Assembly (NCBI GenBank): GCA_040882165.1
Contig: JBBEBV010000008.1
Location: 1-48,883, forward strand
DNA from: Bacteroidota bacterium
Lineage (GTDB): Bacteria; Bacteroidota; Ignavibacteria; UBA10030
DNA: 48,883 nt
Direction: 5' to 3'
Both the position numbers and the translations under genes were made by a program. The notes under the pieces are model-generated. The model ran no database searches and was not told the origin of the DNA. It was given only the letters and a program-made list of their open reading frames with translations. Below are positions 27,077-41,976 of this stretch, piece by piece. Every line of letters begins with the position of its first letter. Within the stretch, counting starts at the first letter, position 1.

Positions 27077-29313
27077 CCATCGTTCGAATGTTCATGCTCG
27101 TGTTGATCTGTTCCACCATGGTGAATGCCCAAAAGGCAATTTATCTTGAAGAAATAAGGAAGGCCGTGGAGAAGGGGTGGAGGGACCATCCCGCTTCGAT
27201 CGAACAATGGAAACGGACTCATGAACCGAATGTGCTCTGGGGCTATAACTCCCCGGGCGGTCCGATCTATCTTGCCGGCACGCTTTCTTTTATGTACGAA
27301 GAGACCGGGGAACGGATCTATGCAGAACGTACCGCGAAGCTCCTTGCAGAGTATGGAGATTTGCGGAACGTTCTTCCCAAGGGTTTCGAGAAAACACGCG
27401 CGGAATATGTCAACGGGGTTCCGGCCATCTCCAATTTCTTCATCATGCCCCCCTATATCCGTGCCTATTTGAGGATCAAGGACAGCGGGGTATTGGATGC
27501 AGAGATGAGGAAGAGGATCGAGGAGGATGTTTCAAAAAGCGCCGATTTTATCTTTCATTTTCCCGAATGGGGAACGCATAACCGGGCGATGCTGCGGGCC
27601 GAATGCCTGATCTATGCCTCCCTGGCCATGCCGAATCACCCGAGCGCAAAAAAATGGAAACAGATGGCCGAAACCATCGCTTCCGATAACCTGAAGCAAT
27701 GGGAGGTCGAGGATGCGACAGGCTATCATAGTGTCTGGCTGATGTCGCTATATTCTTACGCCGAAGCGGCTCAGGTAACAGAGCTCTTTCGTTCACCCCT
27801 GACGAAGTACTATCTCGACTATTTTGTCAGCCTGATCAGTCCGAATGGCACGGTGCCGGAGTTCGGTGATTCACGATGGTGGTCGGGTGTGGAAGGGTTA
27901 CGCTTTGTCGGTGTGTTTGAAAAAGGGGCGACCGTCTACAAGGATCCCGAGATGAAGTGGGCAGCTCAAACCACGCTCGAAACATTGAAGAAGGGGCGTG
28001 ATACTCTCGGTGTCGGAGAGGGATACTACCTATCCGATGCGTATCGCTGGACGGACGAGACGGTCGCCTCCAGGCGGCCAACCACGCTGAGCCGGGAGGT
28101 GCTGGAAGATATGATCGGAAAGAAAGTCGTGTTCCGGAACGGTTGGGATGAAGCGAGCACCTATCTCCTGCTGAACTATCGTGATGAAGGGGACGGAGGA
28201 TGGCTGTACCGGGAGTACCTGCGACAGACAATCTCCGTGGAAGAAGAAAAAATGCATCACGGCCATGCCGATGAAAACAACATCGGACTTCTCATGAGTA
28301 GAGGCTCGGTCCTGCTCACGGACGCGGATTACCGGAGCGACCTGCCGAGCGGCAAGTTTGGATCCTGGCGGCAGGACTATTTTCACAACCGGATCGTTGC
28401 GCGCAAGAACAAGCGCGACCAGAACCAATCGGTCCTGGAGTTTGTCCAGAATTCGGGAGCCTACCGCGCAGTTCGGACGATGAAAGTCGATTTTCTCAAC
28501 CTCCGGGAGGTCGATATGAGCCGCACGCGGTTGATCGACGACAACCTCGGTTACCAGTGGGACAGGATCATCACGTATGTAAAGGAAGACGACTTCTTTA
28601 TCGTCGTTGATGGGATCAAGGCTCTGAAGTCCGACTATTTCACCTTTACCAACTTCTGGCACACGAACAACCTGCTCGTCCGTGGGAAGGAGTACTTCGA
28701 TATCGCGACCGATTCCATCGGATCGTTCCGGTTTCCCACCCAACGGTCTCTCTTCGTTCATTTCCCGGAAACTTACGCGAAAACGTCCGGTGTTGAACCG
28801 ATCAGTCGTAACTGGCGGACCGAGCAGGCAATCTACCAAACCATCTCCAGCCAGTACAAGACGGGTGATACGGAAGTCTTCATAACAGTCCTGATTCCGC
28901 ACGATCGGAAGCAAAACCCGGAGGAGCTCCTTGGCAAAGTCAAAGTGCTGCCAGGAACCAATCCCTACGAAGCGGTCGGGCTGGAGATCGATCGTGGCGG
29001 AGCAAAATCGTACCTCGGCATCAAGATCGACCTTGAGAGCGAAATTGCGCGGGAGAACATCCGCCCGCGGTATCTCTATTCCCTCGGGAAAGCCGGGTAT
29101 GGTGATTTTGAAACCGATGCGCACTATTTCTTTGCGACCGTCTCCAGGAGCTCTGTCTCCTATTCCGCATCGAACGTGCTGAAAGTGCTCCACAAGGGGA
29201 AGACGCTGATGGAAGCTCTCCCCAATATGCATGGCCTCCAACTGGACGGAGCAGCTCCCCGGACGGCTGTCACGAAGTGGAGATATTGGGAGGATACAGT
29301 CCCCGTCAAATAA
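27073..29313 (+). CDS. secreted heparinase II/III-like polysaccharide lyase family protein
   Basis: 746 aa with an ATGA overlap to the upstream gene and the signal peptide MTIVRMFMLVLICSTMVNAQ. The HHGHADENNIGLL block is typical of the heparinase II/III C-terminal domain, and the N-terminal two thirds are helical. Confidence 0.65.
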   Translation: MTIVRMFMLVLICSTMVNAQKAIYLEEIRKAVEKGWRDHPASIEQWKRTHEPNVLWGYNSPGGPIYLAGTLSFMYEETGERIYAERTAKLLAEYGDLRNVLPKGFEKTRAEYVNGVPAISNFFIMPPYIRAYLRIKDSGVLDAEMRKRIEEDVSKSADFIFHFPEWGTHNRAMLRAECLIYASLAMPNHPSAKKWKQMAETIASDNLKQWEVEDATGYHSVWLMSLYSYAEAAQVTELFRSPLTKYYLDYFVSLISPNGTVPEFGDSRWWSGVEGLRFVGVFEKGATVYKDPEMKWAAQTTLETLKKGRDTLGVGEGYYLSDAYRWTDETVASRRPTTLSREVLEDMIGKKVVFRNGWDEASTYLLLNYRDEGDGGWLYREYLRQTISVEEEKMHHGHADENNIGLLMSRGSVLLTDADYRSDLPSGKFGSWRQDYFHNRIVARKNKRDQNQSVLEFVQNSGAYRAVRTMKVDFLNLREVDMSRTRLIDDNLGYQWDRIITYVKEDDFFIVVDGIKALKSDYFTFTNFWHTNNLLVRGKEYFDIATDSIGSFRFPTQRSLFVHFPETYAKTSGVEPISRNWRTEQAIYQTISSQYKTGDTEVFITVLIPHDRKQNPEELLGKVKVLPGTNPYEAVGLEIDRGGAKSYLGIKIDLESEIARENIRPRYLYSLGKAGYGDFETDAHYFFATVSRSSVSYSASNVLKVLHKGKTLMEALPNMHGLQLDGAAPRTAVTKWRYWEDTVPVK

Positions 29314-29366
29314 GTGCTACAAGAGCACCCATCCATTCATAATCACTGATGTGCAGGCAGGAGTCC

Positions 29367-30194
29367 ATGAACCTCGGAAAACAATTACGTTTGCGAAGAA
29401 TCTGGAAACATCCACGCGCAGTTATTATTCCATTCGATCACGGTCAGTACGGGGGGGTGCCGGACGGTCTTCAAGACCCCCGTCGTCTCACGGAGCGGAT
29501 AGCTTCAACCCCTGCCGATGCTGTACTGGTGACGCCCGGTGTTCTTGCGACAATCGTTCCGGCGCTGGGTGACCTTGGTGTGGTGCTGAGGCTGGATGGC
29601 GGATTTACGAAGTATACTCCCGTCGCGGGGGACTATGAGCCGGTGGTGAGCCCCGGGTACGCCGCGTCTCTCGGTGTGGATGCCGGAATTGTCTTCAGCT
29701 TTGTCGGTACGGCATTCGACGCGCAATCGCTCGCGCGACTGGGCCGGACCGTCGAGGCCGCAAATCGGTGCGGCCTGCCCTTGATCTCGGAGGTCCTGCC
29801 GCCGAGTCTGCTCAACAATCACTTTGAGCGGGAGATCTTCAGCGTGAAGGCAAAAGGGGGAACCATCGCAGAGGAAACGCTCAACGTCTCGCGCATCGCC
29901 GCAGAGCATGGGGCCGATATCGTCAAGACACGCTATCCCGGAAGTCCACGCGATCTTCGATCTGTTGTCGATACGTGCGGCGCGAAAGTCATTGTCGCCG
30001 GCGGGCCCCAATCGGGGAAAGGCGATCAGGCACTGCTCCAGTTTGCCCATGACTGTGTCGGGGGAAATGCAGCGGGCATCGTATTCGGCAGGAACGTCTG
30101 GCAACATCCAAAGATGGAAAAACTGATTGCTGCTCTCTGTGCCATTGTCCATGAGGATGAGACGGTTCTCAAAGCTTTGAAACTTCTGAAATAA
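29367..30194 (+). CDS. class I aldolase of the DhnA/FbaB type, second copy
   Basis: The ORF track starts at 29349. The ATG at 29367 follows AGGAG and aligns better with the copy at 14479. It has IPFDHG, DIVKTRYPG and GIVFGRNVWQH. Confidence 0.8.
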   Translation: MNLGKQLRLRRIWKHPRAVIIPFDHGQYGGVPDGLQDPRRLTERIASTPADAVLVTPGVLATIVPALGDLGVVLRLDGGFTKYTPVAGDYEPVVSPGYAASLGVDAGIVFSFVGTAFDAQSLARLGRTVEAANRCGLPLISEVLPPSLLNNHFEREIFSVKAKGGTIAEETLNVSRIAAEHGADIVKTRYPGSPRDLRSVVDTCGAKVIVAGGPQSGKGDQALLQFAHDCVGGNAAGIVFGRNVWQHPKMEKLIAALCAIVHEDETVLKALKLLK

Positions 30195-30226
30195 GACGGA
30201 GCGGATCGCCTGTTGACCTCAATCCT

Positions 30227-31156
30227 ATGATCACCACCGTCACCTTGAACCCGATGCTTGACAAAACCGTGCGCATTGATACGTTTGTGCGCGGCGCGAT
30301 ACACAGAGCAACGGCCATGGAATGCATCGCCGGAGGCAAGGGAGTCAACGTCGCCCGGCAACTGAAATTCCTCGGCGTTCAATCCGTGGCAACGGGATTC
30401 ATGGGGGGCGAGGTGGGGTCCAAAGTTCTGGACCTGCTGCGGCAGGAAGGGATCGAAGCCGATTTTGTTCAGGCCGATGTTCCAACGCGCGAAGGGGTGA
30501 CCTATCTCGAAGCCGATGGAACCTCCACGGCGGTCTTTGAGCCCGCCCGGCAAGTGCCCATCGAACGGGTTCACGAGCTCGGTAAAAAATTCCACACCCT
30601 TTTCCCAAAGAGTTCCTGGATTGTTTGCAGCGGGAGCTCTCCCGGCTCGGAAGCGGACGACTTGTATTATGAAGCGGTCCTCGCTGCGCACAAGTACGGC
30701 GTCATGAGCGTTCTTGATTCGTACGGCGAACCGTTCAGGCTTGCCTTGCGGGCTGTTCCTTCGCTGGTGAAACCGAACAAGGAGGAATTTGAACAAACCT
30801 TCGGCGGTTCCCTGCAAAGCGATGATGACTTTGTGAAGGCGCTCAATCATCTTCTGGGCATGGGGATTCAGTATGCGATCGTCACTGACGGTGCACAGCC
30901 ATGTTACGCAGCGATCCGGGGACACTATTGGAAGATGACGCCCCCTGCCGTTCGGACCGTGAACCCGATTGGGTCCGGCGATGCGATGGTGGCGGGTATC
31001 GTGTACGGCTTCAACCAGGGGTGGAAGTTCCAGCGATGCGTTTCGTTCGGAATTGCGGCCGGGGCTGCAAATGCGCAAAAGTGGGGGGTGGCAAATTCCG
31101 GAATCCAGGAAATCCTTGACCTCGAGCACCAGATTCGTGCTCAAAGACTCCATTAA
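30227..31156 (+). CDS. 1-phosphofructokinase / tagatose-6-phosphate kinase (FruK/LacC branch of PfkB)
   Basis: 309 aa with MITTVTLNPMLDKT, GGKGVNVAR and the C-terminal GSGDAMVAG. Confidence 0.8.
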   Translation: MITTVTLNPMLDKTVRIDTFVRGAIHRATAMECIAGGKGVNVARQLKFLGVQSVATGFMGGEVGSKVLDLLRQEGIEADFVQADVPTREGVTYLEADGTSTAVFEPARQVPIERVHELGKKFHTLFPKSSWIVCSGSSPGSEADDLYYEAVLAAHKYGVMSVLDSYGEPFRLALRAVPSLVKPNKEEFEQTFGGSLQSDDDFVKALNHLLGMGIQYAIVTDGAQPCYAAIRGHYWKMTPPAVRTVNPIGSGDAMVAGIVYGFNQGWKFQRCVSFGIAAGAANAQKWGVANSGIQEILDLEHQIRAQRLH

Positions 31157-31215: not shown

Positions 31216-32259
31216 ATGCCACTAATGAATAACAGACTCAACGATGCAATGGACTGCCGCGCGTCCGACCGCGTTCCATTTGTCCCGGCGATCTATGAAC
31301 ACAAAGCCTGGTTTGTTCACTCCACTCCATCCATTGTATGCCGGGATGTGAAGTTGTTCACGGAAGCGTTGCTCGCAGAATATGAGTCCATCCATCCCGA
31401 TGCTCTCACCGTTGGCATCGATGTCTACAACGTCGAGGCCGAAGCTGTCGGCTGTCAAGTACGGTACTACGGAGAGGGGGAGACTTCCGTCCCTGCAATC
31501 GAGCCCGATACGGTCTTGTATCACGGTGATGATGATATGGGGAGCCTTCGCATGCCCGATCCTTCAAAGGATGGCAGGATGCCGGTGAATGTCGAGGTGG
31601 CGAAGAATATTGTGCAGGCGCTGGGAAAAGAGATACCGGTGCGGGGAGCGGTGTCCGGACCGTTTTCCATGGCGGCCAGCCTCGTCGGACCGGAGAATTT
31701 TCTCATGCTGACCATCACCCAGCCGGCCCTCGTCCATGAAGTCATGAAATTCTGCGCCGAAGTGATTCAACAGTATGCAACCGCGTTCGTCAGAATCGGT
31801 TGCGGCATTGTGATTTTTGACTCACAGTCCTCCCCCGCCTTGATTTCGCCGGACATGTATCGTGACTTTGTTCTGAAGCCGACCCAGGAACTCATTCGTT
31901 CACTCCAAATGCTTGGCGTGAAAAACGTCCCCTTGATCGTCGGTGGAAATACCACGGACATTCTCGAACCGTACCTGGAAACCGGGGGCAACAATATTCT
32001 CTGTGACTATCCTGCAGATGCCGGTGAATTTCTTTTACGATGCTCGGCAGCACGCCGGGCATTCCGCAGAAACATTGATTCATCCGATTTCATCACAACG
32101 ACTCCGGACAAGCTCCGCGCGCGAACAAGAGCTTGCCTGGACGAAGGAAAAGGATATCCCGGATTCATACTAGGGACGGCCGTTGCTCCGTTTGGAACAC
32201 CGTTGGAACACCTGCTGGCCATCAAGACGGCAGTTGAGGAATATTCGAAGAAAGGCTGA
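31216..32259 (+). CDS. uroporphyrinogen decarboxylase (URO-D) family protein, MtaA/CmuA-like methyltransferase, zinc motif apparently absent
   Basis: 347 aa. The family-typical N-terminus is present (RLNDAMDCRASDRVPFVPAIY), as is the TIM-barrel length. Where MT2 enzymes have H-x-C-G-N, this protein reads LIVGGNTT. Confidence 0.65.
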   Translation: MPLMNNRLNDAMDCRASDRVPFVPAIYEHKAWFVHSTPSIVCRDVKLFTEALLAEYESIHPDALTVGIDVYNVEAEAVGCQVRYYGEGETSVPAIEPDTVLYHGDDDMGSLRMPDPSKDGRMPVNVEVAKNIVQALGKEIPVRGAVSGPFSMAASLVGPENFLMLTITQPALVHEVMKFCAEVIQQYATAFVRIGCGIVIFDSQSSPALISPDMYRDFVLKPTQELIRSLQMLGVKNVPLIVGGNTTDILEPYLETGGNNILCDYPADAGEFLLRCSAARRAFRRNIDSSDFITTTPDKLRARTRACLDEGKGYPGFILGTAVAPFGTPLEHLLAIKTAVEEYSKKG

Positions 32260-32273
32260 GCCTGAACGAACCC

Positions 32274-33398
32274 ATGACTGCAAGGAATCGAATTCTGACA
32301 GCGATGCGACGCGGCACGCCCGACCGGGTGCCGGTCATGCCCGATATTTCCAACATGGTTCCGGCCCGTCGCACGGGGAAACCGTTTTGGGACATCTACC
32401 TCCATGAAAATCCATCACTCGACGAGGCGTATGTGGACGCGGTACGCTATTTCGGCATGGATGGCTGGTACATTTATGATAACGCAACCATGTACGAGGA
32501 ACCCGCATGGCAGAAGAAAATCATCGAATCGTTGAACGATGAAGTGCATGTTCGGCGATGGATCGAGACGCCGTTTGGTGAGTTGGAGGAAATTGTTTGT
32601 TACCCGAACAACGATCCTCCCTGGTCGCAAACCGGAATCATCAAAGATATTGCGCAGGATTTTCCGAAACTCAAGTGGTATATGGAGCAAAAGGGACTGG
32701 ATGGGCTCACGAAGAACAGGCAAAGGATCGGCGATCTCGGCATTTACGGTGTTGCCATCGAAACCTTCATGGGATTCTGGGTCTGGGCGAGGGACGGGGG
32801 GTCGATGCAGGCCATACAGGATTTCTTCCAACATCCCGGGGAGATGCAACGGATTAAAGAGTTCTACCTCGCATTCGTCGAGAAGGCGGCAAAACGCATT
32901 CTGCAGGACCGGCCCGACGAGATCCTCCTCGCCGGATCGTCATCTTCCCTGAGCCTGAGCTCCCCGAGGATCTATAAAGAGTTCGATTTGCCGGTAATTC
33001 AGCTCGTTTCTTCACTCTGCAAGGAGGCAGACGTTATTTGTCACCAGCATACCTGCGGACGTTCGAGACAGATTGTGGAGATCAATTATTTCAATTCCGA
33101 TGTGAACGTGATGGAGCCATTGGAGCGCCCACCGGGGGGAGACGTCGATCTGGCCGAAGTGAAGAGGAAGTTTGGCGACAAATTCTGTCTCAAGGGGAAC
33201 GTCAATACCTTTGAAACCATGCTCAACGGTTCCGTGCAGGATGTCGAGCGAGAGGCAAAAGCTTGCATCGATGCGGCAGCCCACGGCGGGGGATTCATCC
33301 TTGCCACCGGCGATCAATGTGGAAGGGATACACCCGACGAAAACCTCTTTGCCCTTGTTGAGGTGGCAAAAACTTATGGACGCTACCCCTTGAAGTAA
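32274..33398 (+). CDS. URO-D family methylcobamide methyltransferase (MtaA/MtbA-like) with H-x-C zinc motif
   Basis: 374 aa with RILTAMRRGTPDRVPVMPD at the N-terminus. It has CHQHTCG (H-x-C) and a later ATGDQCG cysteine, as in MT2-type enzymes. Confidence 0.7.
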   Translation: MTARNRILTAMRRGTPDRVPVMPDISNMVPARRTGKPFWDIYLHENPSLDEAYVDAVRYFGMDGWYIYDNATMYEEPAWQKKIIESLNDEVHVRRWIETPFGELEEIVCYPNNDPPWSQTGIIKDIAQDFPKLKWYMEQKGLDGLTKNRQRIGDLGIYGVAIETFMGFWVWARDGGSMQAIQDFFQHPGEMQRIKEFYLAFVEKAAKRILQDRPDEILLAGSSSSLSLSSPRIYKEFDLPVIQLVSSLCKEADVICHQHTCGRSRQIVEINYFNSDVNVMEPLERPPGGDVDLAEVKRKFGDKFCLKGNVNTFETMLNGSVQDVEREAKACIDAAAHGGGFILATGDQCGRDTPDENLFALVEVAKTYGRYPLK

Positions 33399-33428: not shown

Positions 33429-34064
33429 ATGAAAGAATTACAGGAACTCGCCGAACAACTTATCAACGGGTACTCCGACCATGTCGCGCGATTGACACGG
33501 GAACTGCTGGACAAAGGGGCCACGCCGCAAACCATCCTGAACGACGGTCTCGTTGCAGGGATGACCGTCGTAGGTGAAAGAATGCGATCGGGAGAAATGT
33601 ACCTCCCTGAGGTGCTGCAATCCGCCAGCGCTATGCACGCATCGTTGAAGATCCTGAAACCACACCTGGTGAGAGATGGGGTCGAATCACGCGGGAAGAT
33701 CCTGATGGGAACGGTGAAAGGGGATATGCACGATATCGGCAAGAACCTGGTGGGCATCATGCTCGAGGGGGCGGGGTTCGAGATCGTCGATCTCGGGTTA
33801 AATGTTCAACCCCAGAAATTCGTAGAGGCGATTCAGACGCACAAGCCGGCGATCCTCGGCCTCTCGGCCATGCTGACCACGACCATGCTGCACATGAAGA
33901 CCACCATCGATGCCATTACGGTTGCCGGGGTACGTGCCAACGTGAAAATTCTTGTAGGGGGAGCCCCCGTCAGTCAGAAATTTGCGGATGAGGTGGGAGC
34001 GGATGCCTATGCCCGTGACGCCGTCAAAGCCGTCGATAAAGTCAAAGAATTGCTCGCCGCCTGA
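33429..34064 (+). CDS. mtaC: corrinoid (B12)-binding protein, MtaC/MtbC-like
   Basis: 211 aa with an N-terminal helical cap followed by a Rossmann B12 domain. The domain carries DxHxxG (GDMHDIGKN), SxL (GLSAMLTT) and GG (ILVGGAP) motifs. Confidence 0.85.
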   Translation: MKELQELAEQLINGYSDHVARLTRELLDKGATPQTILNDGLVAGMTVVGERMRSGEMYLPEVLQSASAMHASLKILKPHLVRDGVESRGKILMGTVKGDMHDIGKNLVGIMLEGAGFEIVDLGLNVQPQKFVEAIQTHKPAILGLSAMLTTTMLHMKTTIDAITVAGVRANVKILVGGAPVSQKFADEVGADAYARDAVKAVDKVKELLAA

Positions 34065-34072
34065 GGACATCC

Positions 34073-35461
34073 ATGCCGACGCAGGAAGCCGGGAAACCAT
34101 ACTCAACGCTGGCCCTCAGGAGTCCGGAGGAGTTGATGTTCGGTCGTGTGCCGAAACCGGTTTCTTGCGGCTATGGCCTGCAGCTGGGTGCCGGAGCCGT
34201 GTACCCGGAATTGAATTTCACGCTCCCCACCATGTTGATCGAGGAGGAAAGCTGGAGTTCCATCGTCAACCAGTATGACGAAATGGGAGAGATGATCCGT
34301 CGGACCGCGAAGCGTCTGCATCTTCCGGGGTTGATGATCGAGTTTGAATTGCTTCCTCCCATGACGGAACGGCCTGAGTGGGGGGCCCAGATCACGCGGG
34401 TTCTCGACAGCCATCTCAAGAAAGCCCATGAAGTCGACGGCCTGCCGTGCGCTCTACGCGTCACCCCGACCGATATCCGCGATGCCATTCGTCCGCCCCT
34501 GTTGCGGACCGGCAACGAATGGGAAACGTTGCTGACTTCGTTTGAAGCATGTGCCCTGGCCGGAGCGCACGTTCTCTCCATTGAATCGGTGGGAGGCAAG
34601 GAGCTGAACGATGAGGCGATGATGTATGGCGACGTGGAAGGGGTGATGTTTGCACTTGGTGTCCTTGCCCCGCGGGATATGCAGTTTCTCTGGAAGGAAA
34701 TCGTTTCGATTTGTACGGCGCACGGAGTTGTGCCCGGCGGGGATTCCGCCTGTGGGTTTGCCAATACGGCCATGCAGTTGTCGTCGCAGGGAATGCTCCC
34801 CGAAGTGTTTGCCGCAATGGTCCGGGGGGCAAGCGCCGTCCGAAGCCTTGTTGCGTACGAGTGTGGTGCTTTCGGGCCCTCGAAGGATTGTGCGTACGAA
34901 GGACCGATTCTCAAAGCCATCACCGGTGCGCCGATTGCGATGGAGGGGAAGTCGGCAAGCTGTGCCCATTTCAGTCCCGTCGGCAATGTGGCGGCGGCGA
35001 TGTGCGACCTCTGGAGCAACGAATCCGTGCAAAATGTCCGCCTTTTGTCCGGTCCAGCCCCGGAAGTGTTCCTGGAGCTCCTGACGTACGACTGCCGGTT
35101 GTTCAATGCCGCCCTTTCAACCGGATCGGAACGGACCTATCAACGGATGCTGGTCGAGTCGGATATTCATCTCAGTGCGCAGGCTCTCGTACTGTCCCCT
35201 GAATCCACGATCCGCATTGCCTCGGCGATCGTGCGGGAGCGTACGCACTATCGGCAGACAATCGCAGCGGCATTGGAAGCGCTCCATGTCATTCGTGATG
35301 CTGTTCGGGACAAAACCCTGGCTCTCTCGCCGAAAGAACACCAATGGCTTGACAAAATCGAGTCTGCCCTGGAGGCGCTCCCGGCCGGGGAGGGGGGGAT
35401 CATGGACTCGATGATCGATCGCTACGGTCACCTCTTCACTCCGTCAAGCTACGGTCTCTGA
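34073..35461 (+). CDS. mtaB: methanol:corrinoid methyltransferase MtaB homologue
   Basis: 462 aa. Long colinear blocks match Methanosarcina MtaB as I recall it: SIESVGGKE, GDSACGFANTAMQ, SLVAYECGAFGPSKDCAYEGPILKAITGAPIAMEGKSASCAHFSPVGN, CDLWSNESV and LTYDCRLFNAAL. Confidence 0.85.
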   Translation: MPTQEAGKPYSTLALRSPEELMFGRVPKPVSCGYGLQLGAGAVYPELNFTLPTMLIEEESWSSIVNQYDEMGEMIRRTAKRLHLPGLMIEFELLPPMTERPEWGAQITRVLDSHLKKAHEVDGLPCALRVTPTDIRDAIRPPLLRTGNEWETLLTSFEACALAGAHVLSIESVGGKELNDEAMMYGDVEGVMFALGVLAPRDMQFLWKEIVSICTAHGVVPGGDSACGFANTAMQLSSQGMLPEVFAAMVRGASAVRSLVAYECGAFGPSKDCAYEGPILKAITGAPIAMEGKSASCAHFSPVGNVAAAMCDLWSNESVQNVRLLSGPAPEVFLELLTYDCRLFNAALSTGSERTYQRMLVESDIHLSAQALVLSPESTIRIASAIVRERTHYRQTIAAALEALHVIRDAVRDKTLALSPKEHQWLDKIESALEALPAGEGGIMDSMIDRYGHLFTPSSYGL

Positions 35462-35544
35462 CAAGAATCTTGAAGGTCTAAAGCGAACCAAACTTTTTGT
35501 AAATTCCCTTCATCACTCACCACACTACAGGATTGAGGTTTAGA

Positions 35545-37941
35545 ATGTCCACATTACGCGACGCCCTTTCCCAAGTCCGTACGATTCAATATACTTCTCC
35601 CAACCTTCTGGTAGAGCAAACGGTTGCCCGGGAGCTCCAGGCAGCTTTCAGTCCGGGGGCGGCCATCAAACGCTCTGCGGGATTGAACGCCCCCAGAGGC
35701 ACCCTCCGCATTGCGGTCGTCCCGGACAACAAAGAATGGAAAACAATCCATCGCTCGTTGGCCGGTGGGAAAGATTGGATCATGGCGCGGGTGTCCGAAG
35801 GAGGTGGGGTGGAAGTGCTTGCCTCCAAACCGCACCTCCTTTATTATTTGTGTACGTTTGTGTCAGGCGACTGGGCCGCCATGCCGCTTTCGGTCTTTGC
35901 GGCGGGGAAGATCGTGGTTCCGACATTCCCGAACATGCGGCCGGCGTATGATGTGTTCCTCACCCAACACGGGCGGACCGTCCGCAATTTCGATCGAGAC
36001 GAGTACGTGCGCAATCTTGCACGGCTCGGTTTCTCACACGTTGAAGTCAACGGCCTCGCGATGCCCGTCCCGTTCGAACGGGGCCCGCAGGGAGAATTGC
36101 TTCACCGGTTCTACACTTATTGCCCGTCGCTGGATCAGTTTGTCACCAGCAAGCTGAACAATGGATACTATGATGACGATTATCTCCAGGCAAACCTGAA
36201 CTTTCTGAAGACGAACGCGGAACTGGCGGAGAAGTATGGTCTCGCCCCGGGACTCGTTTGCTTCGAGCCGCGGTCGGTACCGGACAATCTTCTCCAACGC
36301 TACCCCATGCTGCGGGGCGCTCGTGTGGACCATCCCATCCGAAGCTGGCATCCGCGTTTTAACCTCTCCATCGCGCATCCGGTTGTTCAACAACACTATG
36401 CTGAGCTCATGGAGAACCTGCTGCGGGAAGTGCCGACCATCGACTACATCTCCATCTGGTCGAACGACAGCGGCGCGGGGTTCGAATATACGAACTCCCT
36501 CTACGTTGGACGCAACGGCGGCGGCTATGTGATCCGGGAATGGAAAGGGGATAAGGAGATTGCCGAATCGGCGGCGAACAACCTGATGCGGTACATGCGC
36601 ATTCTGCGAGACGCCGGGAGAAAGGTCAACCCGCGCTTTCGGACTCTGATCCGGCTGGAGCCGTTTTGGGCGGAACATGACTATATCTGGGCGCAGCTGG
36701 GCGACGGCCTGGATGTGGAGGTTTCCTCTCTTCTTACGAAAGGCTGGAAGCTCGCGTACAAACATCCGAAATACAAAGAAGCCCGCGAGATCCATGGCAC
36801 GGCACTCCACAACCGTTTCGCCGATGCCGAGAAGCCGTTGATCAGCGAGCTGAAGAAAAAGGGATCGCGTGCCGATGTCTATTTTAATCCGGGCCTCGGG
36901 TGGAACCACGAACCGCTGCTGGGAATTACGTTTCCATGGCTGGTGTTCGACAAAATCAAGGACATGGCAAAAGTTGGGGTAGAGACCCCATGCTACACCA
37001 GCGGTACGATTCCCCCCTCCTTCGCGCCGTACAATATTAACCAGGAGCTCGTTCGTGCGTTTCAGGCCGATAAAAATCTCGATCTGCAGGCGTTCCTCCT
37101 TGCCAAGGCGAAGGAATGGATCGGCTCGCGGCTGGCAGCCGATCTCGTCAAAGTGTGGAAACACTCCGACGAGGCGCTTCGTTCGCATCCCATACCGATC
37201 TGGATTTATTCATCGTGGGGAGTTTGGTACCGTTTGTTGACCCGTCCGATCGTCCCGAACGTCGAGAAAATTTCGGAGGAGGACCGGGCGTATTACGAGA
37301 AATTCCTGTTGGCCACATCGCATAACCGCTGCCGTGTTGACTTCCGGTACGACGTGGGGTTCGATCTTGTCGACCCGCAGCATGCCCACACATGCATCAG
37401 GCTTATGAACCGGAATCTGTTCCCGGAGATTGAAGCCGCACTGAAATTGTTGAAAAAGATGCGGGCGACTGCAACGAACAATGTTGAACGTGCCGTCGTG
37501 GAAGACCAGTACGATCGCATGCGGGCGCTGTTTTGCTGGTACCGAACCCAGCGTAACGTCACCGCCTGGGTCGCCGGTGTGCATACCTACCTTGAAACAA
37601 CCGACAAGCGGAAGCGCCGGGAGTCACGCGCGATGCTCAAGGAAATGGTCCTTGATGAAATTGAGAACGCGAAGGACCTGCTCGATCTGTGGGAAACCTC
37701 GAAGACCAACTGGATGATCGTCTCCGGCGTCGGCGAGACAACGTTTATTTATTATAAGAACTTCGGGGAGCAGGTAAAACGGAAGATCCAGTTGATGAAA
37801 GGGCGGGAGAACGACGAACCGTACGTCGATCCGGATTTCCAGTGGCGCGTCCCCGGGTTTGAGGATTATCTCTACAAGGAAACATCACAGCCGGTACCCA
37901 GGGGCCGTAAGAAAGCAGACGGCAGCTTCGGTGTCAGTTGA
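35545..37941 (+). CDS. hypothetical cytoplasmic protein (798 aa), possible TIM-barrel glycosidase-like core, family not recognised
   Basis: The ORF track starts at the TTG at 35533, and the first ATG is at 35545. There is no signal peptide. The central region (VRNLARLGFSHVEVNGLA, LVCFEPRS, ISIWSNDSGAGFEY) suggests alternating beta/alpha structure, and the C-terminal third is helical. Confidence 0.5.
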   Translation: MSTLRDALSQVRTIQYTSPNLLVEQTVARELQAAFSPGAAIKRSAGLNAPRGTLRIAVVPDNKEWKTIHRSLAGGKDWIMARVSEGGGVEVLASKPHLLYYLCTFVSGDWAAMPLSVFAAGKIVVPTFPNMRPAYDVFLTQHGRTVRNFDRDEYVRNLARLGFSHVEVNGLAMPVPFERGPQGELLHRFYTYCPSLDQFVTSKLNNGYYDDDYLQANLNFLKTNAELAEKYGLAPGLVCFEPRSVPDNLLQRYPMLRGARVDHPIRSWHPRFNLSIAHPVVQQHYAELMENLLREVPTIDYISIWSNDSGAGFEYTNSLYVGRNGGGYVIREWKGDKEIAESAANNLMRYMRILRDAGRKVNPRFRTLIRLEPFWAEHDYIWAQLGDGLDVEVSSLLTKGWKLAYKHPKYKEAREIHGTALHNRFADAEKPLISELKKKGSRADVYFNPGLGWNHEPLLGITFPWLVFDKIKDMAKVGVETPCYTSGTIPPSFAPYNINQELVRAFQADKNLDLQAFLLAKAKEWIGSRLAADLVKVWKHSDEALRSHPIPIWIYSSWGVWYRLLTRPIVPNVEKISEEDRAYYEKFLLATSHNRCRVDFRYDVGFDLVDPQHAHTCIRLMNRNLFPEIEAALKLLKKMRATATNNVERAVVEDQYDRMRALFCWYRTQRNVTAWVAGVHTYLETTDKRKRRESRAMLKEMVLDEIENAKDLLDLWETSKTNWMIVSGVGETTFIYYKNFGEQVKRKIQLMKGRENDEPYVDPDFQWRVPGFEDYLYKETSQPVPRGRKKADGSFGVS

Positions 37942-37999: not shown

Positions 38000-39151
38000 A
38001 TGAAGACCATCCTTCTTGCCCCGGATTCCTTCAAAGGCTCTCTCACAGCGCATGAAGCTGTGGAGGCCATGGAACTTGGCGTTCTGGCGATCACCCCGGA
38101 CGCTCATATTATCCGCCACCCGGTCTCCGACGGAGGCGAGGGGCTGGTCCAGGTACTCTCCCAGGCAATGGGAGGAACGATCCGTCACAGCTTCGTTCAC
38201 GGACCGCTTCCCGGTCAAAAGGTAAAGGCCCGGTGGGCGCTCTCCACAGACGGATCGACAGCCATGCTGGAAATGGCGGAAGCCGCGGGACTCTCGCTCG
38301 TGCCGGTCGATCGACGCGATCCGAAGATCACAACAACATACGGTGTCGGGGAACTTCTTCGTGCGGCGCTTGATGGCGGTGCGCGCTCGATCATCCTCGG
38401 TATCGGGGGGAGCGGGACGAACGACGGCGGTGCAGGATTGGCGGAGGCCCTTGGAGTGAAGCTGCTCGACGGTGGTGGACACCCCCTGCAACAAGGAGGC
38501 GCAGCGCTTCAACAACTTTCCAGCATCGATATTAGTGGGATGGATGGAAGATTGAAGAATGTTTCGCTGACCGTTGCGTGCGATGTCCATAATACCCTCT
38601 GCGGAGAGGAGGGGGCCAGTGCGGTCTACGGTCCCCAAAAAGGAGCGACGGCGGAGGATGTACAGCTTCTCGATTCGGCGCTCCATCATTACGGCGAATG
38701 TCTTCGTACCGTCCTGCATGTCGATGTCTTTTCGATTCCCGGCGGTGGAGCGGCGGGGGGATTGGGAGCCGGACTGGTCGCCTTCTGCGGTGCGAAGCTG
38801 AGGCCAGGGATTGATGTTGTGTTGGATGCCACACGATTCGATGAAATTCTCCGCTCGGCCGACCTTGTCATAACGGGAGAAGGGAGGATCGATGAGCAGG
38901 TTCAGTTTGGAAAGGCTCTCGCCGGGGTCATCGGCCGATCCCGACGAGCAGGGATTCCTGTTGCGGCCGTTGTCGGCGCGCTTCAGGGGGAACGAAACAG
39001 GTTTGTGAACAGCGACTTCCTGGTCGATCTGGAAACCCTCGTCGATGGCTCCACCACCTCGCACGATGCCATGCGCCACGCTGCCGAACTCCTCACAGCA
39101 AAGACCGGCGTGCTCCTCCGGCGAATCCTCCGCCTGCACCATAGCCCTTGA
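38000..39151 (+). CDS. glycerate kinase (GlxK/GarK family)
   Basis: 383 aa with the hallmark N-terminus MKTILLAPDSFKGSLTA, plus GIGGSGTNDGGAG and VITGEGRID. Confidence 0.9.
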   Translation: MKTILLAPDSFKGSLTAHEAVEAMELGVLAITPDAHIIRHPVSDGGEGLVQVLSQAMGGTIRHSFVHGPLPGQKVKARWALSTDGSTAMLEMAEAAGLSLVPVDRRDPKITTTYGVGELLRAALDGGARSIILGIGGSGTNDGGAGLAEALGVKLLDGGGHPLQQGGAALQQLSSIDISGMDGRLKNVSLTVACDVHNTLCGEEGASAVYGPQKGATAEDVQLLDSALHHYGECLRTVLHVDVFSIPGGGAAGGLGAGLVAFCGAKLRPGIDVVLDATRFDEILRSADLVITGEGRIDEQVQFGKALAGVIGRSRRAGIPVAAVVGALQGERNRFVNSDFLVDLETLVDGSTTSHDAMRHAAELLTAKTGVLLRRILRLHHSP

Positions 39152-39211
39152 AGCCAATATTCCGTATACTCCTTCGTTGATTCCCATACCTCCATTCGGA
39201 AAACAATCTCC

Positions 39212-40129
39212 TTGACGACGCGCCCCCGCTTTGCCGATCTCGCAACCGTTAGCTTTATGACCCTTGTGTGGGGATTTTCGTGGCCCGTCACGATCGTCGG
39301 TCTCCGGTACTGCGACCCGATGTTGCTTGCAAGCCTGCGATGCGTTCTTGGCGGATCGCTGATCTATCTCTGGATGTTGCGCAAGCCGGAGCGGGAGCGG
39401 TATGACCGGAAGGGACTTCAAACTGCGCTGGTGGTGGGCTCATTCTGGGTCGGTATCCCGACGGCCCTCTCGGTATGGGCGCTCCAGTACATCGGTGGAG
39501 GCCTTGGCGCCATCCTGCAGAGCACCGTTCCTTTCTTCATTGCGCTCTTTGCACATTTCTATCTCGGCCAGAACCAGTTGAATGTGGGAAAAATCGCAGG
39601 GATGGTTCTTGGTTTTATCGGAATCATTGTGTTATTTTCCGACGATCCATTGGATGCGGAGAACGCTTGGGCGCTGGCCGGCGGACTTGCAGTGGTGCTC
39701 AGCGCGGTCTCCATCGGCTTCGCACAATCGTATTCGCTCAGGCATTTCAAGGGAAAGGACAACACCTCCTTTAATATGTATCTTCAGCTGTTTGGCGGAC
39801 TCGTCATCCTGCCGTTCGCATTCTTTGGGGGCTTGCCCCGGTTTGAGACCAGCACTGAGCTGTTTGGAGTCTTGTTCTTCCTCTCCCTGTTCGCCACCGC
39901 CATTCCGTTTACGATGTACTTTGAGCTGTTCCGACGGGTCGATTTCGTCGTTCTCTCGATGATGGCGTACGTGATCCCGGTGGTCGCGGTGGTGGCGGGC
40001 ATCGTCTGGCTCGGTGAGCGAATGTCCCTGATTGATGCAGCAGGTGCGGTGCTCGTCATCGTGGGTGTTCTGATTGCAACACAGTTCGATTTTCTCCGTT
40101 CAAAATTGTTTCCCCGATTAATCTCATAA
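39212..40129 (+). CDS. EamA/DMT-family transporter
   Basis: 305 aa from the TTG at 39212 (an alternative ATG lies at 39257). It has about ten hydrophobic segments in two similar halves. Confidence 0.75.
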   Translation: MTTRPRFADLATVSFMTLVWGFSWPVTIVGLRYCDPMLLASLRCVLGGSLIYLWMLRKPERERYDRKGLQTALVVGSFWVGIPTALSVWALQYIGGGLGAILQSTVPFFIALFAHFYLGQNQLNVGKIAGMVLGFIGIIVLFSDDPLDAENAWALAGGLAVVLSAVSIGFAQSYSLRHFKGKDNTSFNMYLQLFGGLVILPFAFFGGLPRFETSTELFGVLFFLSLFATAIPFTMYFELFRRVDFVVLSMMAYVIPVVAVVAGIVWLGERMSLIDAAGAVLVIVGVLIATQFDFLRSKLFPRLIS

Positions 40130-40138
40130 AGGTCACTC

Positions 40139-41050
40139 ATGATTCGCATCGGTTTGGTCGATCTCGACACATCGCATCCGAAAGTCTTCACCAAAATTCT
40201 CAACTCCCTGCCCGACGTCAAAGTAACAGCCCTCTGGGATGGCCGCGATGTCTGGCCGGAGGGGTACGATGAACGGTTTGCCAAAGAGAATGACATCCCG
40301 CATGTCTGTAAAAAACTCGAGGACATGCTGGAACACGTCGATGCCGCGATGATCCATGGAACAAACTGGGACAAGCATGTGGACAAGGCCTTTCCCTTCG
40401 TCGAGGCGAAGAAACCGGTGTTGATCGATAAACCGGTTGTGGGGAAGGTGAAGGACATTTACGCACTCCTGGAACTCCAGGCGGCACATAAAACCCCCAT
40501 TTACGGCGGCTCGGCGCTCCGGTTTGCACAGGAGGTCGCGATCTTCCGATCGGAAGCCGCCGCATTCGGCCAGATCGTCTCTGCCGTCGCGACCGGCCCG
40601 GGCGATTTCTTCAGTTACGGCATTCATACGATGGAAATGGCACAGGGGGTGCTTGGCACCGGCGCGAACTACGTCGAGTATATCGCCGAGAACAAAACGG
40701 CGATTTTCTCGATTACGTACCACAACGGCTTTGTGCTGATTCTCCAGCTCCATCAGCCCTTTTATGAGTGGACGTTGAATCTGTATACCACCACGGGTCA
40801 GCATTCCATGAAAGTTGATGCCGCGCGCTTGTACGAACCGTTCCTCCATAAGTTCGTCGAATTGATCAAGGGGAATACGATTCAGTATTCGCTTGAGGAT
40901 CCCCTGGAGGCCGTGAAGATCCACATTGCTGCAAAGCTTTCGCGCCAGCATGGCGGAAAGATTTATCTGTCGGAGGTTCCGTCGGAGGAAGGATTCGATG
41001 GGACTGCTTTTGCGGCGGAATATGCCGCGGCAAAACGCCGGGGTGGATAG
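40139..41050 (+). CDS. Gfo/Idh/MocA-like protein with degenerate dinucleotide-binding loop
   Basis: 303 aa. It reads MIRIGLVDLDTSHP where GxGxxG is expected, and VLIDKP resembles the EKP motif. The stop abuts the next start (TAGATG). Confidence 0.5.
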   Translation: MIRIGLVDLDTSHPKVFTKILNSLPDVKVTALWDGRDVWPEGYDERFAKENDIPHVCKKLEDMLEHVDAAMIHGTNWDKHVDKAFPFVEAKKPVLIDKPVVGKVKDIYALLELQAAHKTPIYGGSALRFAQEVAIFRSEAAAFGQIVSAVATGPGDFFSYGIHTMEMAQGVLGTGANYVEYIAENKTAIFSITYHNGFVLILQLHQPFYEWTLNLYTTTGQHSMKVDAARLYEPFLHKFVELIKGNTIQYSLEDPLEAVKIHIAAKLSRQHGGKIYLSEVPSEEGFDGTAFAAEYAAAKRRGG

Positions 41051-41944: not shown

Positions 41945-41976
41945 GCGTACATTCACAGTAGAACCAGACCCCATCG

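What the first reader, a model, noticed from the sequence alone, without database searches (positions are those of the whole stretch)
34073..35461. MtaB homologue retains the Glu/Cys/Cys zinc site of the methanogen enzyme
In the Methanosarcina MtaBC structure the methanol-activating zinc is bound by one Glu and two Cys. The sequence contexts I remember are ..SVESMGGKE.., ..GDTDCAQANTAM.. and ..TSTCAHSD... All three have direct counterparts here: SIESVGGKE, GDSACGFANTAMQ and SASCAHFS. They are flanked by long near-identical stretches (SLVAYE.GA.GP.KDC.YE....KAITG.P..MEGK).

This points to a catalytically competent enzyme of archaeal or acetogen type, not a decayed relic. It sits in an organism that otherwise looks like a saccharolytic bacterium.
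Basis: partly seen in the sequence, partly recalled or inferred. Interest (0 to 1): 0.6.

Follow-up and report, generated by a model that had tools for sequence, protein, structure and literature searches.

The report
Bacterial MtaB methanol methyltransferase in sugar locus

Summary
The ORF at 34073-35461 (+, 462 aa) is a full-length MtaB: Pfam PF12176 E 2e-156; M. barkeri MtaB 2i2x_A E 1e-87, 36% identity; AF2 model TM 0.89 to 2i2x_A. All three quoted motifs are present and align column for column with the methanogen enzyme.

The third motif is not the zinc ligand. Counting the PDB chain gives E164 (SVES), C220 (GDTDC) and C269 (GPGKDC), whereas TSTCAH is C293. In 179 homologues E164, C220 and C269 are kept in 179, 176 and 176. 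C293 is Gly in every Eubacterium and Acetobacterium MtaB. The window equivalents are E171, C227 and C273, all present, so the conclusion that the zinc site is retained stands.

The gene lies in a URO-D/URO-D/MtaC/MtaB operon, and dN/dS to its nearest relative is 0.12. The genome has a RACo-type activase but no acetyl-CoA synthase, FTHFS or MCR. By phylogeny it is in a separate bacterial clade (Ignavibacteria/Kryptonia plus Acidobacteriota), sister to the clade that holds the acetogens.

In about 20 related MAGs the gene sits in the same sugar-catabolic locus, next to a glycosidase-like protein of unknown family. Bacterial non-acetogen mtaB is already reported from metagenomes, and this scan has found such glycan-linked modules on other DNA. 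Verdict: real, probably functional, a variant of a known system. The link to sugars is the interesting part.

The parts
34073..35461 (+). mtaB homologue, 462 aa: methanol:corrinoid methyltransferase (MT1), bacterial clade
   Evidence: Pfam PF12176 E 2.1e-156, full length. 2i2x_A E 1.2e-87. AF2 pLDDT 84.3, and Foldseek to 2i2x_A gives TM 0.89, E 4e-32. Single copy in the genome. dN/dS 0.12 against L002.
34583..34585 (+). codon of Glu171, equivalent to M. barkeri Glu164 (zinc ligand)
   Evidence: Alignment and numbering. Invariant in 179 of 179 homologues.
34751..34753 (+). codon of Cys227, equivalent to M. barkeri Cys220 (zinc ligand)
   Evidence: Kept in 176 of 179 homologues.
34889..34891 (+). 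codon of Cys273 in GPSKDCAYEG, equivalent to M. barkeri Cys269.
   Evidence: Kept in 176 of 179 homologues, and lost together with C220 in two divergent paralogues.
34961..34963 (+). codon of Cys297 in SASCAHFS, equivalent to M. barkeri Cys293.
   Evidence: Gly in all Eubacterium/Acetobacterium MtaB rows and Val or Pro in others; kept in only 149 of 179. It lies in the low-confidence stretch 292-326 of the model.
33429..34064 (+). mtaC-like corrinoid protein, 211 aa, with DxHxxG (DMHDIG, His101)
   Evidence: Pfam B12-binding_2 plus B12-binding. Best PDB match is 1y80, titled 'predicted cobalamin binding protein', E 1e-65; 2i2x_B (MtaC) gives E 2.5e-26. Motif position.
31216..32259 (+). URO-D family MtaA-like methyltransferase without the zinc site (UROD1), 347 aa; likely the MT2
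   Evidence: Pfam URO-D E 1e-45. M. mazei MtaA 4ay7 E 1.2e-19. The MtaA motifs LHICGN and GCG read LIVGGN and GTA here.
32274..33398 (+). second URO-D family methyltransferase (UROD2), 374 aa, which keeps H-x-C...C (QHTCGR, GDQCGR)
   Evidence: Pfam URO-D E 5.5e-22 over the C-terminal half. Alignment. No PDB relative by sequence. Present in only some related loci.
35533..37941 (+). 802-aa protein with no family assignment and a glycoside-hydrolase-like three-domain fold; it co-occurs with MtaB
   Evidence: No Pfam or NCBIfam match. AF2 pLDDT 70, pTM 0.78. Foldseek: GH138 6hzg E 6e-15, TM 0.52, then GH67/GH115 alpha-glucuronidases, GH20, GH84, GH89. Directly downstream of mtaB in 21 related loci. 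Found in 21 of 24 MtaB-positive genomes of the order.
27073..31156 (+). upstream sugar genes in conserved synteny: secreted heparinase II/III-like protein, DeoC/LacD-type aldolase, PfkB hexose-phosphate kinase
   Evidence: Pfam and NCBIfam. Synteny with mtaB in 17 loci.
38000..43437 (+). downstream genes in conserved synteny: glycerate kinase, EamA transporter, GFO/IDH/MocA-like protein, nucleotidyltransferase, galactokinase-family kinase
   Evidence: Pfam. Synteny in 9-12 loci.

Best explanation
The gene encodes a working zinc-dependent methanol:cob(I)amide methyltransferase (MT1) of a bacterial MtaB clade.

Shown here:
- The protein is full length and has the MtaB TIM-barrel fold.
- It keeps the Glu/Cys/Cys zinc triad as E171, C227 and C273.
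- It is under purifying selection.
- It is translationally packed behind a corrinoid protein with the His-on DxHxxG motif.
- It is preceded by two URO-D-family methyltransferases.
- The genome also holds a RACo-type reductive activase, a split methionine synthase with MTHFR, and a full MetH.

Inferred mechanism, by analogy to M. barkeri MtaBC:
- Zn(II) polarises the C-O bond of methanol.
- Co(I) of the MtaC-like protein takes the methyl group by SN2 attack.
- Methyl-Co(III) is unloaded by a URO-D partner. The zinc-less UROD1 most likely passes the methyl to tetrahydrofolate. The zinc-bearing UROD2 either passes it to a thiol such as homocysteine or acts as a second MT1.
- Oxidised Co(II) is repaired by the RACo protein encoded on contig C175.

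The genome lacks acetyl-CoA synthase, FTHFS and MCR. The methyl group is therefore not turned into acetate or methane. It enters the folate/methionine C1 pool or is oxidised.

The module is embedded in a conserved glycan-catabolic locus next to a glycosidase-like protein. The methanol is therefore probably produced locally from methyl-esterified or O-methylated sugars and then salvaged.
For: Family, fold and zinc triad:
- Pfam PF12176 E 2.1e-156.
- 2i2x_A alignment with E164/C220/C269 equivalent to E171/C227/C273.
- The model matches 2i2x_A with TM 0.89, and it is the only strong hit.
- The triad is kept in at least 176 of 179 homologues.
- The active-site motifs GDSACGFANTAM, GPSKDCAYEGP and SIES.GGKE are identical or nearly identical to those of MtaB from methanol-utilising Eubacterium/Acetobacterium species.

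Selection: dN/dS 0.12.

Partners:
- MtaC-like protein with DMHDIG, closest to PDB 1y80 (E 1e-65), which I recall is the Moorella corrinoid protein.
- UROD1 lacks the H-x-C...C site of MtaA, while UROD2 keeps it.
- RACo with Fer2, Raco_middle and RACo_C_ter domains on C175.
- Corrinoid protein, homocysteine S-methyltransferase, MTHFR and pterin-binding protein on C182.
- MetH on C72.

Absences in a 96%-complete genome: no CdhC, FTHFS or MCR.

Locus context:
- Synteny with sugar genes in about 20 MAGs, with mtaB at two different positions inside the same locus.
- Co-occurrence with the GH-like protein in 21 of 24 MtaB-positive genomes.
- GH138/GH67/GH115-like fold of that protein.

Literature:
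- Acidobacteriota of the sister subclade's phylum transcribe mtaB in peat (PMC10805028).
- A sulfate reducer uses MtaB, MtaC and two MtaA for methanol (PMC5770442).
Against: - No biochemistry exists for any member of this 80-row clade.
- The NCBIfam methanogen equivalog MtaB_Meth scores 424 bits, below its 720-bit cut-off.
- The MT2 partners are not the roughly 30 kDa MtaA that acetogens use, so the acceptor is unknown.
- No clear methanol-releasing esterase was found. There is only a weak, partial pectinesterase match elsewhere in the genome.
- The RACo gene is not in the operon.
- The AF2 model is of low confidence at residues 292-326, near the active-site funnel.
- I could not measure ligand geometry because no coordinates were available.
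- The ligand numbering for Cys-269 rests on my recollection of the 2006 abstract plus the conservation pattern. It does not rest on reading the paper.
Confidence: 0.6

Rival explanations
1. The module is an oxygen-independent demethylase for methylated sugars, not for free methanol. Either MtaB itself or, more plausibly, the zinc-bearing UROD2 acting as a second MT1 takes the methyl group directly from an O-methyl sugar released by the neighbouring glycosidase-like enzyme. An example would be 4-O-methyl-glucuronate or a methylated hexose. The methyl group is loaded onto the shared corrinoid protein.
For: - mtaB is embedded in the same sugar locus in about 20 MAGs and at two different positions.
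- It co-occurs strongly with a GH-like protein whose nearest folds include GH138 (pectin RG-II) and the GH67/GH115 (4-O-methyl-)glucuronidases.
- Two URO-D proteins are present where a methanol system needs one.
- UROD2 keeps the H-x-C...C zinc site that ether-cleaving URO-D MT1 enzymes also use (established knowledge of Odm/Vdm O-demethylases).
- No obvious methanol-releasing esterase lies in the locus.
Against: - The MtaB active-site motifs are the same as in methanol-specific acetogen MtaB. This argues that MtaB itself still takes methanol.
- UROD2 is missing from most syntenic loci.
- In Acidobacteriota the same MtaB clade is not next to these sugar genes.
- The fold match of the 802-aa protein is only moderate (TM about 0.5, pLDDT 70).
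Confidence: 0.15
2. The system is dissimilatory. Methanol is an energy substrate, and the methyl group is oxidised through methyl-THF to CO2 with an external electron acceptor, as in Desulfotomaculum kuznetsovii. The sugar-gene neighbourhood would then be incidental.
For: - MTHFR genes are present.
- There is a precedent for MtaB, MtaC and two MtaA in a sulfate reducer (PMC5770442).
- Acidobacteriota are reported to compete with methanogens for methanol (PMC10805028).
Against: - No FTHFS and no acetyl-CoA synthase/CODH branch were found, so the usual methyl-branch oxidation route is incomplete.
- The conserved synteny and co-occurrence with sugar genes are hard to call incidental.
- There is only a single mtaB and a single mtaC.
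Confidence: 0.15
3. The gene is an inactive relic, a paralogue with a non-catalytic role, or a mis-binned contig from a methanogen or acetogen.
For: - It scores below the NCBIfam equivalog cut-off.
- The genome is a 429-contig MAG.
Against: - The frame is intact, the zinc triad is kept and dN/dS is 0.12.
- The same gene order occurs in many Ignavibacteria-type MAGs, including a 97%-identical orthologue on a 41-kb contig.
- GC content is like the rest of the contig.
- MAG contamination is 0.17%.
- The gene branches far from both methanogens and acetogens.
Confidence: 0.04

Closest known systems
MtaB/MtaC of Methanosarcina barkeri (PDB 2i2x), the MT1 of methanol:coenzyme M methyltransferase
   Same: Same Pfam family and same fold (TM 0.89). 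The Glu/Cys/Cys zinc triad aligns (E164/C220/C269 to E171/C227/C273). An adjacent corrinoid protein carries DxHxxG.
   Different: Only 36% identity, and it lies on the other side of a well-supported branch from all archaeal sequences. It scores below the NCBIfam MtaB_Meth cut-off. The corrinoid protein lacks the N-terminal extension of methanogen MtaC (211 aa against 258 aa). No MCR was found. One of the URO-D partners has lost the zinc site needed to activate a thiol such as coenzyme M.
MtaABC of acetogens (Acetobacterium woodii, Eubacterium limosum/callanderi, Moorella thermoacetica)
   Same: 46% identity to the Eubacterium MtaB, with nearly identical active-site motifs. The corrinoid protein is closest to PDB 1y80, which I recall is from Moorella. 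The methyl group presumably goes to a non-CoM acceptor.
   Different: It lies outside the clade that holds the acetogen enzymes. Acetogen MtaB has Gly at the position of C297. Acetogen MtaA is a roughly 30 kDa protein (PMC13391211), whereas here the partners are 347- and 374-aa URO-D proteins. No acetyl-CoA synthase or FTHFS was found in the genome.
Methanol methyltransferase operon of the sulfate reducer Desulfotomaculum kuznetsovii (Desku_0050-60)
   Same: It is a non-methanogen with MtaB, MtaC and two MtaA-type methyltransferases induced by methanol (PMC5770442).
   Different: That organism oxidises methyl-THF to CO2 for energy, and its operon is linked to B12 synthesis genes rather than to sugar catabolism.
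Bacterial mtaB reported from metagenomes (Acidobacteriota and others in Stordalen Mire; Ellenbogen et al. 2023, PMC10805028)
   Same: Those authors report Acidobacteriota mtaB in fen and bog. Several of the fen and bog Acidobacteriaceae MAGs in my sister subclade have Stordalen-style names. Transcription was shown in situ.
   Different: That paper treats mtaB only as a marker gene. It does not describe the gene cluster, the URO-D partners or the sugar-locus association.
Type 1 mlp gene clusters (MtaA-like proteins, a corrinoid protein and Ram) of Kountz and Balskus (PMC10418091)
   Same: Several URO-D/MtaA-like proteins occur with one corrinoid protein in non-methanogens.
   Different: Those clusters have no MtaB, include the activase in the cluster, and are proposed to act on methyl-sulfur or methyl-selenium compounds.

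Membership tests
MtaB family (Pfam PF12176), methanol:corrinoid methyltransferase | Full-length match to the family profile above the curated cut-off | tested here: met
   521.8 bits against a cut-off of 25, covering profile positions 2-460 of 460.
MtaB family (Pfam PF12176), methanol:corrinoid methyltransferase | TIM-barrel fold of MtaB | tested here: met
   AF2 pLDDT 84.3. Foldseek to 2i2x_A gives TM 0.89, E 4e-32, and the next hit has TM 0.21.
MtaB family (Pfam PF12176), methanol:corrinoid methyltransferase | Zinc ligands Glu164, Cys220 and Cys269 (M. barkeri numbering) | tested here: met
   E171, C227 and C273 by alignment. Ligand identity rests on my recollection of Hagemeier 2006, on a review saying 'two Cys and one Glu' and on the conservation pattern. 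The geometry in the model could not be measured.
MtaB family (Pfam PF12176), methanol:corrinoid methyltransferase | Cognate corrinoid protein with the base-off/His-on DxHxxG motif encoded alongside | tested here: met
   The 211-aa B12-binding_2 plus B12-binding protein ends 8 nt upstream and carries DMHDIG with His101.
MtaB family (Pfam PF12176), methanol:corrinoid methyltransferase | Reductive activase (RamA/RACo type) available | tested here: met
   One RACo protein with Fer2, Raco_middle and RACo_C_ter domains lies on contig C175, outside the operon.
MtaB family (Pfam PF12176), methanol:corrinoid methyltransferase | Zinc content and methanol:cob(I)alamin methyltransferase activity | not testable with these tools
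   This needs purified protein.
Methanogen MtaABC (NCBIfam equivalog MtaB_Meth, CoM as acceptor) | Score above the equivalog cut-off | tested here: not met
   424.5 bits against a cut-off of 720.
Methanogen MtaABC (NCBIfam equivalog MtaB_Meth, CoM as acceptor) | Groups with archaeal MtaB in a tree | tested here: not met
   Archaeal rows are separated from all bacterial rows by a branch with support 96-100.
Methanogen MtaABC (NCBIfam equivalog MtaB_Meth, CoM as acceptor) | MtaA with an H-x-C...C zinc site, and methyl-CoM reductase in the genome | tested here: not met
   UROD1 lacks all three ligands and only UROD2 keeps them. No MCR_alpha match in a 96%-complete genome.
Acetogen MtaABC (methyl to THF, Wood-Ljungdahl pathway) | Groups with Eubacterium/Acetobacterium MtaB | tested here: not met
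   The window lies in an 80-row clade (support 98) that is sister to the 83-row clade holding the Bacillota acetogens.
Acetogen MtaABC (methyl to THF, Wood-Ljungdahl pathway) | Roughly 30 kDa MtaA (MT2) in the operon | tested here: not met
   The operon partners are URO-D proteins of 347 and 374 aa. Acetogen MtaA is 29.7 kDa. That acetogen MtaA is of the pterin-binding type is my assumption and was not tested. The only stand-alone, non-FolP-like pterin-binding gene lies on C182, next to a split methionine synthase.
Acetogen MtaABC (methyl to THF, Wood-Ljungdahl pathway) | Acetyl-CoA synthase/CODH and formyl-THF synthetase present | tested here: not met
   No CdhC (PF03598) and no FTHFS (PF01268) match in the 96%-complete genome. 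Absence from a MAG is not proof.

The most novel reading that the evidence does not exclude
The MtaB/MtaC/URO-D module and the adjacent glycosidase-like protein of unknown family form one pathway. That pathway removes methyl groups from O-methylated or methyl-esterified sugars during anaerobic glycan breakdown, without oxygen. One URO-D enzyme would act as a corrinoid-dependent sugar methyl-ether demethylase, and MtaB would capture any methanol released. The methyl groups would feed the folate/methionine pool. This would be the first corrinoid-dependent sugar O-demethylation system.
Probability: 0.15. Interest if true: 0.8.

Novelty: new variant of a known kind. Interest (0 to 1): 0.42.

Why it matters
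Methanol released from plant polymers is a major substrate for methane formation in wetlands and soils. Abundant saccharolytic bacteria such as Ignavibacteria, Kryptonia and Acidobacteriota may capture that methyl group with a B12/zinc enzyme as they digest glycans. If so, they compete directly with methylotrophic methanogens and alter methane budgets.

The clade is large: 6431 related proteins in the big collection and about one in six genomes of this order. It is transcribed in peat in a sister lineage, yet it has never been assayed.

The corrected ligand assignment (C273, not C297) matters for anyone designing mutants. The recurrent pairing with an unassigned glycosidase-like family points to a possible new carbohydrate-active enzyme family and to a possible anaerobic route for methylated sugars.

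Tried and rejected
- I tried to read Hagemeier et al. 2006 by DOI and by PMC id. It is not held.
- Two literature searches for the residue numbers returned nothing relevant. The Cys-269 assignment therefore rests on memory, numbering and conservation.
- The Rfam scan of the window found no riboswitch or other RNA.
- PDB sequence searches for UROD2 and for the profile of the 802-aa protein gave no hit.
- The 802-aa protein has no detectable similarity to the unknown proteins that flank mtaB in an Acidobacteriaceae locus. The sugar link therefore does not extend to that subclade.
- I considered and rejected a mis-binned methanogen or acetogen contig, because of synteny in many Ignavibacteria MAGs, GC content and the tree.
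- I considered and rejected acetogenesis, because no ACS or FTHFS was found.
- I could not measure zinc-site geometry because model coordinates are not exposed.
- Seven unnamed representatives with very long branches (P0127, P0130, P0131, P0133, P0134, P0139, P0143) were left out of the second tree.
Full report
**What is there**

The window is one whole 48.9-kb contig (C8) of a 3.51-Mb, 429-contig MAG, 96% complete with 0.17% contamination. All long ORFs are on the + strand.

The ORF named in the finding runs from 34073 to 35461 and encodes 462 aa. It matches Pfam MtaB (PF12176) over the whole profile (E 2.1e-156). It also matches the one solved MtaB, chain A of the M. barkeri MtaBC complex 2i2x (E 1.2e-87, residues 6-461 against 2-460). 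BLASTP identity to that chain is 35.6%.

An AlphaFold2 model built on 29 homologues has pLDDT 84.3 and pTM 0.87. Residues 292-326 are of low confidence. Foldseek finds 2i2x_A with TM 0.89 and E 4e-32, and no other comparable structure. It is the only MtaB gene in the genome.

**The observation and its one error**

They align exactly with the M. barkeri motifs.

I rebuilt the PDB chain from that alignment and counted positions. This gives Glu164 in SVES, Cys220 in GDTDC and Cys269 in GPGKDC. The Cys of TSTCAH is Cys293. As I recall the abstract of Hagemeier et al. 2006 (PNAS 103:18917), the zinc is bound by Glu-164, Cys-220 and Cys-269. The paper itself is not held here. A held review confirms only that zinc has two Cys and one Glu ligand.

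I therefore tested the assignment by conservation.
- In 99 sequences, and then in 179 after adding 80 loci found with a Eubacterium MtaB, Glu164 is invariant.
- Cys220 and Cys269 are each kept in 176 of 179.
- Cys293 is kept in only 149 of 179.
- All 15 Eubacterium/Acetobacterium-type rows have Gly at position 293 while keeping Cys220 and Cys269. These include E. limosum, E. aggregans, A. malicum, A. bakii, A. paludosum, A. tundrae and A. carbinolicum.
- Two divergent paralogues, one of them from Methanosphaera, lose Cys220 and Cys269 together.

The zinc triad in the window protein is therefore E171, C227 and C273, with C273 lying in GPSKDCAYEG. C297 in SASCAHFS is conserved in this clade but cannot be a required ligand.

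**Not a relic**

Against the 97%-identical orthologue in 'Ignavibacteria bacterium UBA6688' (L002) there are 33.5 synonymous and 13.5 non-synonymous differences, giving dN/dS of 0.12. In an alignment of 29 clade members, 71% of columns are identical on average, and E171, C273 and C297 are invariant.

**Operon**

Four genes are tightly packed, with gaps of 14, 30 and 8 nt.
- A 347-aa URO-D protein (UROD1, 31216-32259).
- A 374-aa URO-D protein (UROD2, 32274-33398).
- A 211-aa corrinoid protein (33429-34064).
- mtaB.

The corrinoid protein has B12-binding_2 and B12-binding domains and the motif DMHDIG with His101. Its closest solved relative is PDB 1y80, deposited as 'predicted cobalamin binding protein' (E 1e-65). 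I recall that entry as the corrinoid protein of Moorella thermoacetica, but the tool output does not name the organism. It is much closer than M. barkeri MtaC (E 2.5e-26).

Aligned to M. mazei MtaA (4ay7), UROD1 reads LIVGGN where MtaA has LHICGN, and GTA where MtaA has GCG. All three zinc ligands of the thiol-activating site are therefore gone. UROD2 keeps QHTCGR and GDQCGR.

Acetogen MtaA is a 29.7 kDa protein (PMC13391211), so this operon uses a different MT2 family from the acetogens. A pairing of one zinc-less and one H-x-C URO-D protein recurs in a second Ignavibacteriota locus (L019). An Acidobacteriaceae locus (L063) has MtaC, URO-D, MtaB and URO-D, with both URO-D proteins keeping H-x-C.

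**Rest of the genome**

Present:
- One RACo-type corrinoid activase with Fer2, Raco_middle and RACo_C_ter domains, on C175.
- Seven B12-binding domain hits, including a 1217-aa MetH.
- On C182, a corrinoid protein, a stand-alone homocysteine S-methyltransferase, an MTHFR and a pterin-binding protein.

No match:
- CdhC (acetyl-CoA synthase).
- FTHFS.
- MCR alpha.
- Pectinesterase gave only a weak partial match.

The organism is thus neither an acetogen nor a methanogen, as far as a 96%-complete MAG can show. Plausible sinks for the methyl group are tetrahydrofolate (then MTHFR and the C1 pool) and homocysteine.

**Relatives and phylogeny**

The large protein collection holds 6431 relatives at E <= 0.001 among the 8000 candidates scored. 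The representative library has 641 clusters at 50% identity with E <= 0.001.

The best 80 genomic loci are all from MAGs:
- Ignavibacteriota, 'Bacteroidota' and Kryptoniota at 64-97% identity.
- Acidobacteriaceae, Terracidiphilus, Solibacter and Bryobacteraceae from peat and fen at about 60%.
- Single Dehalococcoidia, Methylomirabilis and Roseiarcus bins.

An IQ-TREE tree of 99 rows puts all archaeal sequences on one side of a branch with support 96. These are M. barkeri, Methanomethylophilus, Methanobrevibacter, Methanosphaera and Hodarchaeota. The window falls in a 45-row Ignavibacteria/Kryptonia subclade (support 98), next to a 35-row, mostly Acidobacteriota subclade.

A FastTree of 172 rows, rooted on the archaea, adds real acetogen sequences. 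The 80-row clade (support 98) is sister to an 83-row clade. That sister clade contains the Bacillota acetogens together with Chloroflexota, Armatimonadota, Planctomycetota, Kiritimatiellota and others.

Within the window's own order the gene is patchy: 25 of 151 genomes and 18 of 81 genera.

**Sugar-locus context**

The contig is a long carbohydrate-catabolic array. In order it encodes:
- GH38, aldolase, an oxidoreductase, PMI, an FAA-hydrolase, an enolase-superfamily dehydratase and GH3.
- A DHODH-like protein, a cyclase, an M20 enzyme and a ROK kinase.
- A secreted heparinase II/III-like protein, a DeoC/LacD aldolase and a PfkB kinase.
- The mta module.
- An 802-aa unknown protein, glycerate kinase, EamA, a GFO-like protein, a nucleotidyltransferase, a galactokinase-family kinase, a BadF-type kinase and an MFS sugar porter.

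tblastn of these proteins against the 80 related loci shows that the same order recurs in about 20 Ignavibacteria-type MAGs. That order is cyclase, M20, ROK, heparinase-like, (aldolase), PfkB, UROD1, (UROD2), MtaC, MtaB, 802-aa protein, glycerate kinase, EamA and onward. In seven further loci mtaB sits at another place in the same locus, between the M20 gene and the ROK gene, without an adjacent mtaC.

The 802-aa protein has no Pfam, NCBIfam or PDB sequence match. Its AF2 model has pLDDT 70 and pTM 0.78. The model resembles three-domain glycoside hydrolases. The best match is GH138 BT0997, which acts on pectin rhamnogalacturonan II (E 6e-15, TM 0.52). GH67 and GH115 (4-O-methyl-)alpha-glucuronidases, GH20, GH84 and GH89 follow. 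It has no obvious signal peptide.

Across the same 151 genomes of the order, 21 of 24 genomes with a substantial MtaB also have this protein family, and 21 of 30 genomes with the family have MtaB. Relatives are not independent, so I give no p-value.

In Acidobacteriota the neighbours are different and unrelated.

**Interpretation**

The active-site motifs of the window protein (SIESVGGKE, GDSACGFANTAM, GPSKDCAYEGP) are the same as, or one residue from, those of the Eubacterium/Acetobacterium enzymes. This argues that MtaB itself still takes methanol.

The repeated embedding in a glycan locus, next to a glycosidase-like protein whose nearest folds act on methylated or esterified uronic-acid-containing polymers, suggests a local source. 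The methanol or methyl groups would come from the glycan being degraded and would be salvaged. This step is inference.

The role of the second, zinc-bearing URO-D enzyme is open. It could be a thiol methyltransferase or a second MT1 for a methyl ether.

**Comparison with what is known**

Methanol methyltransferase systems are well characterised in methanogens and acetogens, and have been shown by proteomics in one sulfate reducer. Bacterial mtaB in non-acetogens has been reported as a marker gene from metagenomes, with in situ transcription by Acidobacteriota (PMC10805028). URO-D/MtaA-like clusters without MtaB have been described as mlp clusters.

Several features are, as far as the held literature shows, undescribed and untested:
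- The specific architecture: a bacterial-clade MtaB, a 1y80-like corrinoid protein and URO-D partners, one of them zinc-less.
- The absence of the Wood-Ljungdahl pathway in the host.
- The conserved link to a sugar locus and an unassigned GH-like family.

Earlier notes of this scan describe similar glycan-linked corrinoid modules in other genomes. One first-reader note independently named GPSKDC as the third ligand motif. These notes are unchecked leads that agree with what I tested here.

**Verdict**

The finding is real and its main conclusion holds, with a corrected ligand. As an MtaB with an intact zinc site it is ordinary for its family, since almost all homologues keep the site. As a system it is a variant of a known kind, and its physiology is interesting but unproven.

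Noticed in passing
window 35533-37941; paralogue at G000:C276:1-1821 (- strand): An 802-aa protein with no family assignment has a GH138/GH67/GH115-like predicted fold. It lies directly downstream of mtaB in 21 related loci and co-occurs with MtaB across the order. A 610-aa paralogue lies elsewhere in the genome. It is a candidate for a new glycoside hydrolase family.
   Followed up: partly
G000 contig C182:1-4340 (loci L083, L086): A split methionine-synthase-like cluster: corrinoid protein, stand-alone homocysteine S-methyltransferase, MTHFR with its C-terminal domain, and a pterin-binding protein. It exists in addition to a full-length MetH on C72. It is a possible direct methyl sink for methylated corrinoid proteins.
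   Followed up: partly
window 31216-33398; L019:10352-11497 and 15541-16569; L063:6904-7971 and 9437-10489: Two URO-D/MtaA-like genes accompany mtaB in distant members of the clade. In the Ignavibacteria-type loci one of the pair has lost all three zinc ligands.
   Followed up: partly
protein P0152 (1238 aa, metagenomic): A fusion protein carries an MtaB domain at residues 791-1237, behind about 790 residues of unknown content.
   Followed up: no
L006:8001-9365 (Kryptoniota MAG): This orthologue reads GGDSASGFANT, with Ser in place of the Cys220-equivalent zinc ligand. It is either a sequencing error or a natural variant.
   Followed up: no
proteins P0178 (Methanosphaera stadtmanae) and P0143: These divergent MtaB paralogues have lost both zinc cysteines together. 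They are presumably non-catalytic or use another chemistry.
   Followed up: no
L017, L019, L021, L029, L032, L035, L039: In these seven loci mtaB sits between the M20 peptidase-family gene and the ROK kinase gene of the same sugar locus. No corrinoid-protein gene lies within the fetched 7-17 kb.
   Followed up: partly
window 1-48883: Every long ORF on the 48.9-kb contig is on the + strand, and cumulative GC skew rises steadily across the contig.
   Followed up: no
G027:C14:76255-77596; G131:C209:295-1543: Two relatives in the order carry mtaB split into two adjacent frames. These are frameshifts or assembly errors, so the gene may be decaying in some lineages.
   Followed up: no
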